Assembly: GCA_026770705.1 (NCBI GenBank)
Contig: JANJGN010000022.1
Location: 31,372,001 to 31,436,000, forward strand
Length of the DNA: 64,000 nucleotides
Source of the DNA: Isurus oxyrinchus
Taxonomy: Eukaryota
Reading direction: 5' to 3'
In this document: positions 1 to 6,000 of the stretch, in pieces
Position numbering within the stretch: the stretch's first letter is position 1
Layout: every line of letters starts with the position of its first letter
Position numbers: made by a program

Positions 1-3000
1 CCTAACTTAGAAATATATTGCCATTCCTTCACTGTTGCTAGGTCAAAATCCTGGAACTCTCTCCCTAACAGCTCTGTGGGTGTACCCCCAACACATGGGT
101 TACAGCAGTTTAAGAAGGCAGCTCATCACCACCTTCTCAAGGGCAATTAGGGGTGGGCAATATATGCTGGCCTAGCCAGCGATGCCCACATCTCATATCC
201 TGTAAATGAATAAAACAAATTATGTATGAAAATAGTCATCCAATTGTCTATACTAAAAAGATGAACTTCAGAACACTTGTTTTCCAAAAGCAAGATGCAA
301 ATTGGCATGAACGAGAGCTAAGGTTATAGAACTCTTATATGACAAGATCGGGATAGTTAACTTCCTCCCCAGGAGGATCTGGAAAGCACTGATGTTGGGT
401 GTGCTATCTTACCCTGAAATTGTATAAATGCTTCCATCTTATTGATCCCCAACACCAGACTGGCCTGTAACATATACAAGGAGGAGTGTGTTAAACAATT
501 TTACAGCTGAGGATCTTTATTTAAAACACAGCTTGGGCTGAAGAACACCACCATGAGAACAGTGCCAGCATCTAATAGTCTGCAATTGAGTCATTTTAGC
601 TCCTTTCTAGAGAGTTATGGGAAGATTAAAGTTAGTTTATATTAAAATGAAAACTGGGCCCAGACTTCAATTTTCAAATTACAGTTGGGCTGAAGACCTT
701 TTTTCTTCTTTTACGGAACGCTGTGATGTCGAAAACTGAACCATTTATTATCCATCACAGGAGAAATAATATTCACTGCAATCACCATTAAACATCAGCT
801 CCCTGGTCACTTGACATCTGTTAAAAGACAAAAAAAAGTTACAGAATCTGTGACGCATAGCTTTCAAACATGTCCTAATGTTTGAAATCACACCTACCAT
901 CGGGATTTCAGGTTCTTTTCTAACTGCTGAAATAAAAGAAAAACAACAATTAATTAATTACTTCTGGCACATAATATTTAATTTGAATTAACATGCCCAA
1001 CTGTGAAATTTGCAGTCTATTTTTTTATATAGTTCCAAAACTCCTAATCATTTGTAAAACAGACAGTAATCTGTGTACAATTGTGATGTTAACAGTTAAA
1101 AAAAAGCTCACATTTTCAAAAAAGTTCTCCTACTCCCTTTATCTAACTATAAAAATGATTTTATAACTAAAGGGATCCAAAATAATTGCAATCACCCATC
1201 CTATATATAAGATTTTAGTCCTCTGACTTGACTAGGTGGGTACAGTATTGTAATGGTTATATTACCAATTTCAAATTCAAAAGTCTGGACTAGTAATTCA
1301 GAAGATGAGAGTCCAAATCCCACCAATTTGAATTTGGATTTTTTTTTTTAAAAAAAGGCTGGTATCTGGACAAGTCACCATGAAGCTTCAGTCACTTTCA
1401 GAAGACTGTCCTACATACCCAACTTGTTCACTAGTGTCCTTTCAGGAGGGAGTCTACAGTCCTGTATGCAACTCAAGTAGCACACCAATATGTCTGAATT
1501 GCCCACTGAATTACCCTAGAAAACCACTCAGTGGTATTAAACTGCAATGGAGAAGGCCCAACATCTTCTCATGGTCACTGAGAACGAGAAATAAATGCCA
1601 GCTTTGCCAGAGGTACACATGACCAGAAAGTGATTTTTTTTTTAAAGCATTTCCTTCCTTCTCTTCTCCCATTTGCCTTTCCCTGTATCAAACAGCATAA
1701 CTCGGAAACTTGTGATTTGCAACTTATTCCCACATCTCTTTCAATACTGCTTGATGCATATGCCTCAATAGAAGGGCACCAGAGCAGTTCACCCACCTGG
1801 GTTTTTCCTCCTTCTCCTTGTGGGACTACAGGAGGGGTGGAAGCATGGCTTGTATTTTGTACATTATCTATCCTCTCTTCACCCAACTAAACCTAAAGAT
1901 TGTAACTAATTAGACAACATTCATAACTTTAGGTGTCTCTTGTGTCTGGAGCAAACTAACCAGCAAACATGTTCCTGATCAGTGAGGTAAGAGTATTTGA
2001 TTGCCAATGGTTCAGCCAAAATCTTATGTAAGTCACACAACTCTAGCAAGTGAATTAGAATGCCAGGCAGAATTTCAAACTGTGCAGAATGTTGGGATTC
2101 TGTCACTTTTTATTTAGTTTTGGAACTTGGACAGTTGGCATATGATAAGGCTAAACTGAATTGCTTACCAGATTATGGGTGTATTCAAAATAAAGGCTAA
2201 GCGAAAGTATTTTAAAACATAAGATTAGGTCATGTAATAATCTTAAGTTTTGAAAGGAAAAAGAAGCATTTCCATATCCATCATACCTGGATGCCACCTT
2301 CTGCTGCACTGCAAAACTGCCAAGATTACAAATGCTATAAAACATACTGGAAAAATCATAAATATAGCTATGAGAATATTTGTCTTCCTTTCCTCTGCTG
2401 GCGGCTGATAAGGATTACGTTGTCTTTCCAAGACTGAAACAGAAAATTTAGAAGAAAACAATTTAATTAATTATTAATTTCAGCATCAACTTTTATATAG
2501 AGTCATAAAAGTATACAGCACAGAAAAAGGCCCTTCGGCCTATTGAGTCTGCACCGGTCAAACAAGTACCTAACTATTCTAATCCCATTTTCCAGCACTA
2601 GGCCCATAGCCTTGTGTGCCATGGCATCACAAGTGCACATCCAAATACTTCTTAATTATTATGAGGGTTTCTGCCTCTACCACCCTTTCAGGCAGTGAGT
2701 TCCAGATTCCCATCACCTTTTGAGTGAAAAAATTCTTCCTCACATCTCCTCTAAACCTCCTGCCCCTTACCTTAAATCTATGCCCCCTGGTTATTGATCC
2801 ATTTATTGGTAGCAATTTGTGATTTTGACTTGATTTCTGAGTACTTTCATTGGGAACTCTTTAGGGGGCTTCAAATTCTGTTTCTTTATATATTTTTTGT
2901 CTAATTTAGCTGGTGCATAAATTTTGCATGCTTTTTCTGGAGTATACCTGTGTCCTCCACCAATCTAGGGATGAATTTACACTGATGATGTTGTTTATTT

Positions 3001-6000
3001 AGTGTAGACAGAAAGGAAGGAAAAATATAATGGTAAGTCCTAGACTGCCATAATTTACAGTTACAGTCAAATATCCATGTTAACCAATGCATCTGCAGTG
3101 TTTACACAATATTAAAAATGGAGAATAAGAAATTTCTTAGATTGCTATGCACAGAGTGACAAAAAAAATAATTAAAATATGTAATCTAGTAATCCCTTTC
3201 CAGGGCACTGTTTAGCAGCATTGCAAAATCATGTTATTGAAAGGGAGGTTATCGCATTTTTATGTTGCTGCAGATTGGTAATTAGCTTGACTCAGTTGGG
3301 ACTATTCCCTCTTAGAAATCAGAAGGCTGTGGTTCCAAGTCCCACTATGTGCATGAAAACATCATCCTGTCTGGCACTTCAATGCAGCATTGAGGGAACA
3401 TGCACTGGTCAAAATGTTGCCTTTGCAATGAGACATTCAATTGAGATCTCCAGATACCTGCTCAGGCTGATAGACAAGATCTCGAAGCACTATTCAAGTG
3501 TATTCTCCAGATATCCCAGATAACATTTGTTATTCAACCAACGCCACCAAAAATGGGTGAAATGATCATTCACTCAGTCAATTGCTGTTTGTGAAATTTC
3601 CCTCCATGCAAGTTGACTGTTGAAAGTGATTACATAACAACAGTGACTACAACTCAAAGCTATCACATCAGCGATATGTTTCACAAGGTGCTGAGGATGT
3701 GAAAAGTACTATATAAATGCAGGATCACTTGTTCATCCCTCTCTAACATGACTCTCTTTATAACTTGTTGTTGCCTATGAACACAAATCAAGCTTACTAA
3801 AAATGAGAAGAAATTTGAAATTTGTTGCCAATTAGTGGCAACCAATATTTTACAAGGAAGCACATCAAAGAAATACTGTTACGCACCTTTAACCTTCAGA
3901 GTGATGGTTTGAAATTGGTGACCAGAATTTGATAGCAAATCATATTGATATGTTCCACCATCTGACAATTTTGTTTTCTGGATTAGCAATGAGACATCCG
4001 TTGAATTTGGATGAAGTAATTTAATTCGACCCTGAACTCCACTGATATTTTTATTTGTGCTAAAGACAACTGTTCTATTTCCATCTTTATTTATACTCAG
4101 TTCATATAATGAAAAATTTGTTTTAGTTGTAGTGAAACTGCACGGCAATTCTGTGTCTTTATCAAATATTCCTGTCACTGAATGGACACAATTAAAAGTC
4201 ACGAAACCTAGAAAACAAAAATGTACTTTCACTCATATTACCTCAGTGACAATCGGTGTTTAATGAGGTACATATTGAGAAATACTACAGTACTTACTTT
4301 CTGCAAAGGTTGTTCTTGTGTATAAGATGACATAAAGCAAAGTCACTGTATGGTATGAGCCCATTTCCAGAATGCAGTTCATCTGCTTATTTAGGGAAAG
4401 TACAGAAACATCATTAAGCCTCAGGAATTTAATCAAGCCTGATTTCACTTTTCTTGTGCATCACATTAGTTTTCTTTCAGGAATTTTAAGGAGATATATA
4501 ATGCTGCACCAAAAATTCCATTAGGGAAATTTGCTTTGCTAAAATATTTTGAATGTTCATAAATATTGTGTGTTACTGAAAAACAAACAAATGCATTTTG
4601 TACTGTGTTCCTACAATTCTCACAGCAAGAATCCTGGAATCAATGAACTGACAATAGTATACAAATGGACACCGCAATGGCTCCAATCTTGACAGGGGCG
4701 GGTTATTTATGTTGAAGACAGAGTTTCAGGCACCGATTGCAGATTTCCCACGTATTTTGTAGAATTTTGAATCAACAACGTCTTTTTGCAGGATCAGCTC
4801 CCCACCCCCCACTGTTTGACATGATTGACACCGAGGCGGATGGGGCACATTCTGGAGCAAGCTGCAGCTGCTACTAGGAGCCAGGGGCTGTCCGATCCTG
4901 GACCTGCGATGGTCCGATCCTGGATGACAGCCCAATCCGAATGGCCATCATTGTGCAATTGTGCAATTCTGGCACAGAATTTCCATGGAGATTTCCCCTA
5001 ACTCCCAACATCACTCCAGTAGAAGATAACCGAAAAAGTCTGACTGTTGAAGTTATTCCATCACAGGGTACATCACAACTGTTGGGGCAATTCTTGCGAA
5101 ATTGGTGATTAAACTCCAGACCATCCTGATCTCTCTACTGCTCATCTATTTACAGAATAAATGTAGTGAGCAACCAGGTCCCCTTGTCCCCACTTCTCAC
5201 CCCACAAGGCTCCACATTCAAAGGATCATCCTCCGCCATTTCCGGCAACTCCAGCATGATGCCACCACCAAACAAATCTTACCCTCACCTCTCCTGTCGG
5301 CATTCCATCGGGACCATTCCCTCCAGGACACCATGAGCTACTCCTCCATCACCCCAATGCTTCATCCCCTTCCCACAGCACCTTCGCAGGCAATCACAAA
5401 AGGTGCAACACCTGCCCCTTTACCTCCTCCCTCCTCAACATCCAAGGGCCCAAACACTCCTTTCAGGTGAAGCAGTGCTTCACTTGCACCTCCTTCAATT
5501 TGGTCTACAGCATCTGCTGCTCCCTACGCGGTTTCCTCTACATTGAGAAACCAAACCCAGACTGAGTGACCACTTCGTGGAACACCTTTGGTCTGTCTGC
5601 AAGCATGACCCAGACCTTCCTGTCGCTTGCCATTTCAACACACCATCCTGTTCTCATGCCCACATGTCAGTCCTTGCCCTGCTGCAATGTTCCAGTGAAG
5701 CCCAACACAAACTGTAAGAACAGCACCTCATCTTTCAATTAGGCACTTTACAGCTTTCCGGACTTAACATTGAGTTCAATAAATTCTGATCATGAACTCT
5801 CTCCTCCATCCCCATCCCTATTTTTCTAAATTCATTTTTATTTTTTATCCATTTATTTTTATTTTTATTCATTTATCCATGGTTTTATCCCATTTTTATC
5901 CCATTTTCTATCCTGTTTTTCCCCCATCACTGCCCCCTCCTCCAACTTATCTCTTACAGGGCCAACTATTATTTGTTCCTCTCCGCAGATGCTATCAGAC

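What the first reader, a model, noticed from the sequence alone, without database searches (positions are those of the whole stretch)
2287..4364. Tandem B7-family paralogue that lost its whole IgC exon in frame, giving an IgV-only ligand
Seen: copy A lacks 1035 bp (B 46612-47646; junction at 2800/2801, 1-bp microhomology) containing the IgC exon. Flanking introns are both phase 1, so V splices to TM in frame (G|TC = Val), and all splice sites are intact. Established: most B7 ligands are IgV-IgC, and ectodomain height affects synapse geometry. Inference: a new single-domain B7-like protein formed by duplication plus exon deletion.
Basis: partly seen in the sequence, partly recalled or inferred. 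Interest (0 to 1): 0.7.

Follow-up and report, generated by a model that had tools for sequence, protein, structure and literature searches.

The report
Shark B7-like gene copy missing IgC exon
One of two tandem copies of a shark immune-ligand (B7-like) gene has really lost the exon for its membrane-proximal domain and could still make a shorter one-domain protein, but nothing yet shows that it is expressed rather than a decaying copy.

Summary
The window is elasmobranch (lamniform-like) DNA, not human. It holds two head-to-tail copies, about 43.2 kb apart and about 94% identical, of a minus-strand B7-like gene. Copy B has six exons: signal, IgV, IgC, stalk+TM and two tail exons. Copy A lacks 1035 bp that hold the whole 291-nt IgC exon. 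The junction is at 2800/2801 with 1 bp of microhomology. One breakpoint cuts a LINE fragment that is continuous in B and in three other copies in the window, so A suffered a deletion. All 8 splice sites of A, its open frame, stop codon and poly(A) signal are intact, and V joins TM in frame (203 codons by arithmetic).

The family is B7-like by its IgC exon and by a family profile (CD276, PD-L1, PD-L2 best). It is an elasmobranch clade whose IgV lacks the canonical F-strand cysteine.

Function is unproven. dN/dS between the copies is 2.8 (not significant), coding divergence is close to intronic divergence, and no IgV-only relative of 187 residues or more turned up by name. There are precedents: skate relatives with predicted IgV-only isoforms, and a human PD-L2 isoform lacking IgC. 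I rate it a new variant of a known kind, of moderate interest.

The parts
4298..4382 (-). Copy A exon 1 (signal peptide). Ends in phase 1.
3887..4207 (-). Copy A exon 2, IgV (321 nt, phase 1 at both ends). Pfam V-set E=5.6e-11.
2800..2801 (.). Deletion junction in copy A (1-bp microhomology, C). The merged intron 2434-3886 is 1453 nt.
2441..2800 (.). LINE (CR1-like) 3' fragment in copy A, cut off at the deletion junction.
2287..2433 (-). Copy A exon 4 (stalk + transmembrane + start of tail). 11 nucleotide differences from B are packed into 2400-2426, the stalk.
898..926 (-). Copy A exon 5 (cytoplasmic tail).
788..817 (-). Copy A exon 6 coding part, with TAA stop at 788-790. An AATAAA signal lies at 744-749.
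48815..48899 (-). Copy B exon 1 (signal peptide).
48404..48724 (-). Copy B exon 2, IgV.
47179..47469 (-). Copy B exon 3, IgC (291 nt, phase 1/1). Pfam Ig_3 1.3e-8; PDB CD276 8.5e-14, PD-L2 1.9e-8.
46612..47646 (.). 1035-bp stretch of copy B that has no counterpart in copy A.
46435..46912 (.). LINE (CR1-like) 3' fragment in copy B, running uninterrupted across the breakpoint position 46611.
46098..46244 (-). Copy B exon 4 (stalk + TM).
44701..44729 (-). Copy B exon 5 (tail).
44591..44620 (-). Copy B exon 6 coding part with TAA stop. AATAAA lies at 44547-44552.

Best explanation
Shown: an elasmobranch B7-like gene (signal, IgV, IgC, stalk/TM, short tail; one exon per module; phase-1 introns around V, C and TM) was duplicated in tandem. 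Afterwards a 1035-bp end-joining-type deletion (1-bp microhomology) removed the IgC exon and parts of both flanking introns from the downstream copy A. The remaining five exons of A keep their splice sites, frame, stop and poly(A) signal. Exon lengths 85+321+147+29+27 = 609 nt give 203 codons, against 300 for B.

Inferred: copy A is still a coding-competent gene. If transcribed, it makes a type-I membrane protein with a single IgV held on a short, proline-enriched stalk of about 17 residues. In B7 ligands the IgV carries the receptor-binding face (established for PD-L1 and CD80; recalled). Such a protein would therefore present the family's binding domain roughly one Ig domain closer to the membrane. 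It could act as a short-reach or cis ligand, or as a competitor of copy B.

My odds: the deletion is real, about 0.9. Copy A is expressed and functional as an IgV-only protein, about 0.45. The confidence figure given refers to the second, full claim.
For: - Deletion and polarity: (junction). In one search the LINE fragment is continuous across B 46611 in B and in 3 of 3 other copies in the window (36302-36618, 37371-37799, 38434-38666) but is truncated in A.
- All six named shark orthologues and paralogues (P0001-P0006) are IgV-IgC-TM proteins of 285-307 aa. Their IgC is 58-92 of 95-96 residues identical to B's in the four compared.
- Intactness of A: 8 of 8 splice dinucleotides, no stop, no frameshift, tail exons and AATAAA kept.
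- There are 0 indels in 612 aligned coding nt, against 13 small indels in 2645 non-coding nt. That gives 3.0 expected for both lineages (P=0.049) and 1.5 for A alone (P=0.22).
- A's IgV is the more conservative copy. Of 7 IgV differences, 6 are derived in B and 1 in A by outgroup comparison. A is 98/106 identical to the Carcharodon protein, against 92/106 for B.
- Precedents in the same family: Amblyraja radiata and Leucoraja erinacea 'isoform X2' proteins of 196 and 197 aa with one V-set domain plus TM, and V-V-TM genes without IgC.
- A human PD-L2 isoform lacks the IgC-like domain through exon-3 skipping (passage read in PMC6803534).
- The AF2 model of the IgV exon alone folds as a V-set sandwich (best model pLDDT 89.2).
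Against: - No expression evidence of any kind was reachable.
- Pairwise dN/dS between A and B is 2.8 (20 nonsynonymous, 2 synonymous; Fisher p=0.19). Coding divergence (22/612, 3.6%) does not differ from non-coding divergence (112/2645, 4.2%; p=0.57). There is therefore no sign of purifying selection.
- 9 of the 20 amino-acid differences are derived in A, including a signal-peptide, a TM and a tail change and at least 5 stalk changes. This fits relaxed constraint as well.
- The IgC core motif is nearly invariant across 11 family members, which suggests the domain matters.
- No IgV-only relative of 187 aa or more was found among named proteins with A's IgV as query (4 of 4 hits are V-C-TM).
- The intact frame says little if the deletion is recent.
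- Four of the five AF2 models had low confidence (69, 54, 54, 48).
Confidence: 0.45

Rival explanations
1. Copy A is a young unprocessed pseudogene. The exon deletion disabled a redundant duplicate, and the remaining exons simply have not yet collected a stop or frameshift.
For: - 20 nonsynonymous against 2 synonymous differences.
- Coding divergence is close to non-coding divergence.
- 9 A-derived replacements are spread over the signal peptide, stalk, TM and tail.
- The gene region shows a general indel load: 243, 343 and 1035 bp absent from A and 314 bp absent from B.
- No annotated IgV-only orthologue in Carcharodon or Cetorhinus.
- IgC is strongly conserved in the family.
- For A alone the absence of coding indels is not significant (P=0.22).
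Against: - All splice sites, the frame, the stop and the poly(A) signal are kept.
- A's IgV has at most 1 derived replacement against 6 in the presumably functional B.
- The same high N:S ratio holds for B's own derived changes, so it does not single out A.
- IgC-less relatives exist in skates.
Confidence: 0.42
2. The deletion is an assembly or consensus artefact, or a rare somatic or heterozygous allele. The real copy A carries an IgC exon.
For: Tandem copies about 94% alike and rich in repeats are hard to assemble. One breakpoint lies in a repeat. No reads could be inspected.
Against: - The junction is clean. Both flanks carry copy-A-specific differences from B (5-6% on each side), so it is not a mis-join of B sequence.
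- There are no N runs in the window.
- The microhomology is 1 bp, not a long repeat that would invite collapse.
Confidence: 0.08
3. The unusual stalk of copy A (11 differences in 27 nt) comes from a short gene-conversion patch or an old allelic lineage, not from adaptation to loss of the IgC spacer.
For: At 3 stalk positions A matches Cetorhinus while B matches Carcharodon, and at 1 the reverse holds. Divergence along the locus is a mosaic, 1.3-2.7% around exons 1-2 against 5-8% elsewhere. Per-exon identities give conflicting nearest relatives: IgV has A closer to Carcharodon, stalk/TM has B closer.
Against: At least 5 stalk replacements are unique to A, including two new prolines. No donor sequence is present in the window.
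Confidence: 0.4

Closest known systems
Elasmobranch B7-like proteins annotated automatically as 'programmed cell death 1 ligand 2' (Carcharodon carcharias, P0001; Cetorhinus maximus, P0002), 'CD276 antigen-like' (Carcharodon P0005; Heptranchias P0004) or 'uncharacterized' (Scyliorhinus P0003; Mustelus P0006)
   Same: Same gene family and exon plan. Copy B matches P0001 at 92/96 (IgC), 92/106 (IgV) and 43/48 (stalk/TM). Copy A's IgV matches at 98/106. They share the family signature: two invariant cysteines at IgV-exon positions 6 and 22, and Tyr/Phe instead of the F-strand cysteine.
   Different: All of these proteins have an IgC domain and copy A has none. The window's own two proteins were not found in the database: no 100% hit.
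Skate relatives: LOC116988133 (Amblyraja radiata) isoform X2 and LOC129708458 (Leucoraja erinacea) isoform X2, 196-197 aa; V-V-TM forms (isoform X1, Rhinoraja LOC144594901)
   Same: Same family by sequence: 43% identity to A's IgV, E=1.8e-11, with the same Cys/Tyr signature. One V-set domain plus TM and no IgC. This is the architecture predicted for copy A.
   Different: There the one-domain form is a predicted splice isoform of a V-V-TM gene that has no IgC at all. Here the IgC exon was deleted from the DNA of a V-C-TM gene. The skate models are computational predictions, and I saw no expression data.
Human PD-L2 isoform lacking the IgC-like domain (exon 3 skipped; He et al. 2004 as cited in PMC6803534)
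   Same: In-frame loss of the IgC exon from a B7 ligand, giving IgV-TM. It is possible for the same reason, namely phase-compatible introns around the IgC exon.
   Different: That is alternative splicing of an intact gene, not a fixed genomic deletion in a paralogue. Orthology of the shark gene to PD-L2 is not established.
CD276 (B7-H3), PD-L1 (CD274) and PD-L2 of mammals
   Same: These are the best solved-structure relatives of the family profile across IgV+IgC: CD276 1.6e-37 (two repeats; 4.8e-19 for the 2Ig form), PD-L1 7.5e-19, PD-L2 1.7e-16. The IgC exon alone is best per domain to PD-L2 (36.4 bits). The Leu and Gly that Kondo et al. name as the PD-L2 / shark-'PD-L1' IgC motif are present at the aligned places.
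   Different: The canonical IgV disulfide is absent. The residue aligned with PD-L1 D122, said to be well conserved in PD-L1 from fish to man (PMC12151841), is Gln in A and Pro in B. The IgV alone gives no significant B7 match.
VISTA and other single-IgV B7-related proteins (recalled, not tested here)
   Same: A B7-related membrane protein with only one IgV ectodomain.
   Different: Ancient single-domain genes, not recent derivatives of a V-C gene. No sequence relationship was seen in any call.

Membership tests
B7 family (IgV-IgC type-I membrane ligands) | Signal peptide, IgV, IgC, TM and a short tail, each on its own exon with phase-1 introns around the Ig exons | tested here: met
   Met for copy B. 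For copy A every part except IgC is present.
B7 family (IgV-IgC type-I membrane ligands) | Membrane-proximal IgC domain present | tested here: not met
   Copy A: no IgC exon between 2434 and 3886 or anywhere else outside copy B. Copy B meets it.
B7 family (IgV-IgC type-I membrane ligands) | Significant sequence similarity to known B7 members | tested here: met
   The IgC exon of B matches CD276 8.5e-14, PD-L2 1.9e-8 and PD-L1 about 3e-3. The family profile matches CD276, PD-L1, PD-L2, BTN1A1 and CD80. A's IgV exon alone does not (best E=0.018, an antibody chain). A is placed by its 93% identity to B's IgV.
B7 family (IgV-IgC type-I membrane ligands) | Canonical B-F intradomain disulfide in the IgV | tested here: not met
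   At the F-strand Cys column 0 of 17 family sequences have Cys (15 Tyr, 2 Phe). Cysteines at IgV-exon positions 6 and 22 are invariant in 17 of 17. The column aligns with the Cys of CD276 and PD-L1.
PD-L1/PD-L2 orthology group | Conserved PD-1-contact residue D122 (and F19), per Kondo et al. 2025 | tested here: not met
   The residue aligned with D122 is Gln (A) or Pro (B). The paralogous lineage P0004/P0005 has Asp there. F19 was not covered by the profile alignment. The paper's alignment is in a supplement that I could not open.
PD-L1/PD-L2 orthology group | Conserved synteny of the PD-L locus | not testable with these tools
   The window holds no other host gene, only LINE/SINE sequence. 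No vertebrate genome collection was available.
PD-L1/PD-L2 orthology group | IgC 'shoulder' motif L150/G172 (PD-L2 and shark 'PD-L1', Kondo et al.) | tested here: met
   In the alignment of B's IgC exon to mouse PD-L2, the Leu after Gly-Tyr-Pro and the Gly before the F/L-x-I/V-T-S strand are both present (motif from the passage). This applies to copy B only.
Functional protein-coding gene (copy A) | Transcription, correct V-to-TM splicing, purifying selection | not testable with these tools
   No transcript data. The substitution tests are inconclusive.

The most novel reading that the evidence does not exclude
Copy A is an expressed, hard-wired IgV-only member of an elasmobranch-specific B7 clade, and the A/B pair has sub- or neo-functionalised. 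After losing the IgC spacer, A remodelled its stalk: the most diverged 51-nt stretch in 6 kb, with two new prolines. B changed three consecutive G-strand residues that align with the PD-1-contact residues D122-Y123-K124 of PD-L1. The pair would then be a natural experiment on how ligand height and binding face are tuned at an immune synapse, in a clade whose IgV has swapped the canonical disulfide for another one.
Probability: 0.25. Interest if true: 0.55.

Novelty: new variant of a known kind. Interest (0 to 1): 0.35.

Why it matters
If copy A is expressed, it would be a germline-fixed IgV-only B7-type ligand sitting beside its two-domain parent. This is the form that B7 genes otherwise reach only through alternative splicing. 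It would give comparative immunologists a matched short/tall ligand pair for testing how ectodomain height affects receptor engagement.

Independently of copy A, the locus belongs to an elasmobranch B7-like clade that automatic annotation calls 'PD-L2', 'CD276-like' or 'uncharacterized'. The clade lacks the canonical IgV disulfide. My four literature searches of the held library found no paper describing it. If copy A is silent, the finding is an ordinary young pseudogene in a repeat-rich tandem duplication.

Tried and rejected
- **B gained the exon by insertion: rejected.** The LINE fragment is continuous in B and cut in A, and the named relatives P0001-P0006 have an IgC.
- **A and B are two haplotypes assembled in tandem: rejected.** Divergence is 4-6%, many indels separate them, a 19-kb non-duplicated spacer (about 24.1-43.2 kb) lies between them, and the window has no N.
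- **IgC exon moved elsewhere in A: rejected.** There is no other tblastn match.
- **Placing the IgV by itself led nowhere.** PDB sequence search gave only weak hits. Foldseek gave generic V-set folds such as nectin, CRIg, PVR and Siglec. The ESM Atlas gave generic V-set clusters.
- **The LINE-derived ORFs inside the deleted region** have no Pfam match.
- **Species and names of the unnamed library hits:** The listing of cluster members could not be run. Names for the skate proteins came instead.
- **Flajnik et al. 2012 (PMC3709836)** is not held, so it was not read. The supplements of Kondo et al. 2025, which hold their shark PD-L1 alignment, are closed, so I could not tell whether they count this clade as shark PD-L1.
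- **A literature term 'IgV-CD80'** (a mouse splice form that I recall) had 0 occurrences among the 11 papers listed.
- **No phylogeny against CD274, CD276, VTCN1, HHLA2 and ICOSLG.** Only E-value ranking against PDB chains was possible.
- **Not reachable:** Adjacent windows, sister-species loci and transcripts stayed unchecked.
- **The spliced (joined) protein models of copies A and B** were never assembled, searched or folded. Every search and fold used single-exon translations or natural database proteins.
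Full report
**What the window is.** The 64-kb window has no N and is vertebrate DNA rich in LINE and SINE sequence. The nearest named proteins to its only host gene come from lamniform sharks: Carcharodon carcharias (92 of 96 residues over the IgC exon) and Cetorhinus maximus (87 of 96). I therefore take it for a lamniform-like shark. It is not human. The exact species was not determined, and the window's own proteins gave no 100% match in the protein database.

**The observation.**
- Self-comparison shows a head-to-tail segmental duplication with a period of about 43.2 kb. 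Window 1 to about 24,100 matches 43,232 to about 61,000 at about 93-95% identity.
- Each unit carries one minus-strand gene.
- In copy B the exons are 48899-48815 (signal), 48724-48404 (IgV), 47469-47179 (IgC), 46244-46098 (stalk+TM), 44729-44701 and 44620-44591 (tail, TAA). All have AG/GT borders.
- Copy A has the matching exons 4382-4298, 4207-3887, 2433-2287, 926-898 and 817-788, but no IgC exon.
- The alignment shows one 1035-nt gap in A at 2800/2801, opposite B 46612-47646 (plus or minus the one shared C). It covers 567 nt of intron, the 291-nt exon and 177 nt of intron.
- By arithmetic on exon lengths, copy A stays in frame for 203 codons and copy B for 300. The latter is the length of the Cetorhinus protein.
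- I did not build, search or fold the joined products. Every search used one exon at a time.

**Polarity.** One breakpoint lies inside the 3' part of a CR1-like LINE fragment. In B that fragment runs on across position 46611, and three other copies of the repeat in the window (36302-36618, 37371-37799, 38434-38666) align straight through the same point. In A it stops at the junction. The named relatives P0001-P0006 all carry an IgC. Copy A therefore lost the exon, and B did not gain it. The single base of microhomology points to end-joining rather than repeat-mediated recombination (inference). The deletion is one of several large indels between the copies: 243 and 343 bp are also absent from A, and 314 bp are absent from B.

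**What the gene is.**
- The IgV exons hit Pfam V-set (5.6e-11 and 1.4e-10). The IgC exon hits Ig_3 (1.3e-8) and, just below cut-off, the butyrophilin-type C2-set_3 model.
- Against solved structures the IgC exon is closest to CD276 (8.5e-14 summed over its two repeats), PD-L2 (1.9e-8, the best single-domain score) and PD-L1 (about 3e-3).
- A profile of 11 full-length elasmobranch relatives matches CD276, PD-L1, PD-L2, BTN1A1 and CD80 over both Ig domains. B7-family kinship is thus supported, nearest the PD-L/CD276 group.
- The IgV alone is not diagnostic. Its best PDB sequence hit is E=0.018. An AlphaFold2 model of the exon (best model pLDDT 89.2, the other four 48-69) retrieves generic V-set domains such as nectin, CRIg and PVR. 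The ESM Atlas gives generic V-set clusters.

**An unusual IgV in the whole clade.** At the F-strand cysteine column, which aligns with the Cys of CD276 and PD-L1, 0 of 17 sequences have Cys (15 Tyr, 2 Phe). Two other cysteines, at positions 6 and 22 of the IgV exon, are invariant. That these two pair with each other is my inference.

**Is it PD-L1?** Kondo et al. 2025 (PMC12151841; passages read, supplement closed) state that fish have one PD-L gene with F19 and D122 well conserved. They also state that shark 'PD-L1' shares the L150/G172 IgC motif of PD-L2. Copy B has that Leu and Gly. However, the residue aligned with D122 is Gln in A and Pro in B, whereas the sister lineage P0004/P0005 has Asp. 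Orthology to PD-L1/2 is therefore not established, and NCBI's 'PD-L2' label is automatic.

**Is copy A alive?**

In favour:
- All 8 splice dinucleotides, the frame, the stop and AATAAA are intact.
- There are no indels in 612 coding nt, where the non-coding rate (13 in 2645 nt) predicts 3.0 for both lineages (P=0.049). For A alone the figure is 1.5 (P=0.22).
- A's IgV is the more conservative of the two. Of 7 differences, all nonsynonymous, 6 are derived in B and 1 in A when polarised with the Carcharodon, Cetorhinus and Scyliorhinus proteins.

Against:
- Between the copies there are 20 nonsynonymous and 2 synonymous differences (dN/dS 2.8, p=0.19).
- Coding divergence (3.6%) equals non-coding divergence (4.2%, p=0.57).
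- 9 of the 20 replacements are derived in A (7 in B, 4 ambiguous).
- No IgV-only protein of 187 aa or more related to A's IgV is annotated in the named databases searched (4 of 4 hits are V-C-TM).

The date of the deletion is unknown, so an intact frame is weak evidence. I put a functional IgV-only gene and a young pseudogene at nearly equal odds, and an artefact at under 0.1.

**Two local patterns.**
- The stalk-coding start of exon 4 carries 11 differences within 27 nt (A 2400-2426). It is the most diverged 51-nt window in the first 6 kb of the alignment (binomial P=7.7e-6 uncorrected). At least 5 of its replacements are unique to A, including two new prolines. At 3 positions A agrees with Cetorhinus and B with Carcharodon, and at 1 the reverse holds. 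This fits either remodelling of the stalk after domain loss or a conversion patch or old lineage. Per-exon identities conflict on which copy is closer to the Carcharodon gene, and divergence along the locus is a mosaic.
- Three consecutive IgV differences (positions 97-99 of the exon translation) align with PD-L1 D122-Y123-K124. D122 is a PD-1 contact according to PMC12151841. The other two are contacts as I recall. By outgroup comparison 2 of the 3 are derived in B and 1 (position 98) in A. The two paralogues thus differ on the likely binding face.

**Precedents.** An exhaustive HMMER scan of the 50%-identity representative library with A's IgV found 50 proteins at E<=1e-3. The close ones are mostly V-C-TM proteins of 285-300 aa. 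Two are different. A 196-aa protein (Amblyraja radiata LOC116988133 isoform X2) and its 197-aa Leucoraja counterpart have one V-set domain plus TM. Their X1 form and a Rhinoraja gene are V-V-TM with no IgC. Human PD-L2 has a reported isoform lacking the IgC-like domain through exon-3 skipping (passage in PMC6803534). The IgV-TM architecture is therefore known in this superfamily. What is new here is that it is fixed in the DNA of a paralogue.

**Verdict.** It is a new variant of a known kind, of moderate interest (0.35), pending transcript and read-level evidence.

**Not checked.**
- Reads, transcripts, adjacent windows and sister-species loci.
- The closed metagenome and viral contig collections.
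- The cluster look-up.
- The supplements of PMC12151841.
- Flajnik et al. 2012 (not held).

Noticed in passing
window 8399-22349 and 52682-59396: GC-rich (about 60%) LINE-1-like retrotransposon upstream of each gene copy. Unit A holds two tandem copies (8.4-15.1 kb and 15.4-22.3 kb, 97.6% alike, more alike than either is to B's single copy at about 93%). The copy at 15810-19382 has an open 1190-aa frame with endonuclease, reverse transcriptase and zf-RVT domains. A 715-aa open frame without a Pfam match lies just upstream in its sense (19415-21562). The element may be recently active.
   Followed up: partly
all 17 family sequences; window 3887-4207 and 48404-48724: The whole elasmobranch clade replaces the canonical F-strand Cys of the IgV by Tyr/Phe (0 of 17 Cys) and keeps two other invariant cysteines (IgV-exon positions 6 and 22). 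The IgV exon encodes no tryptophan. This suggests a non-canonical disulfide in a B7-like V domain.
   Followed up: partly
window 3888-4205 vs 48405-48722, exon residues 97-99: Three consecutive A/B amino-acid differences align with PD-L1 D122-Y123-K124 on the G strand, and 2 of the 3 are derived in B. All 7 IgV differences are nonsynonymous and none is synonymous.
   Followed up: partly
window 2400-2426 vs 46211-46237: 11 substitutions in 27 nt of stalk-coding sequence, the densest cluster in 6 kb. A shares some states with Cetorhinus and B with Carcharodon, which hints at gene conversion or an old lineage.
   Followed up: partly
window 59496-59568; 22414-22704; 43705-43916: A tRNA-Thr-like sequence (ARAGORN) and related tandem units of about 90 bp lie at the far end of the LINE in both duplication units. 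They lie again at 43.7 kb, inside a 243-bp stretch that copy A lacks. These are possibly SINE-type repeats near the duplication borders.
   Followed up: no
window 3333-3646: A 314-bp stretch in the V-TM intron of copy A has no counterpart in B and no other copy in the window. Whether it is an insertion in A or a deletion in B was not resolved.
   Followed up: partly
window 35352-37733 and 36133-36631 / 37470-37963: A CR1-like LINE with endonuclease and reverse-transcriptase frames lies in the unique spacer between the two units. It has an inverted 500-bp repeat, and it is the same repeat family as the fragment cut by the deletion.
   Followed up: no
P0007 (916 aa), P0014 (289 aa): Some unnamed library relatives look like fused or internally duplicated gene models: several V and C units in one protein, or a repeated C-domain segment. 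This suggests tandem arrays of this family in other species, or faulty gene predictions.
   Followed up: no
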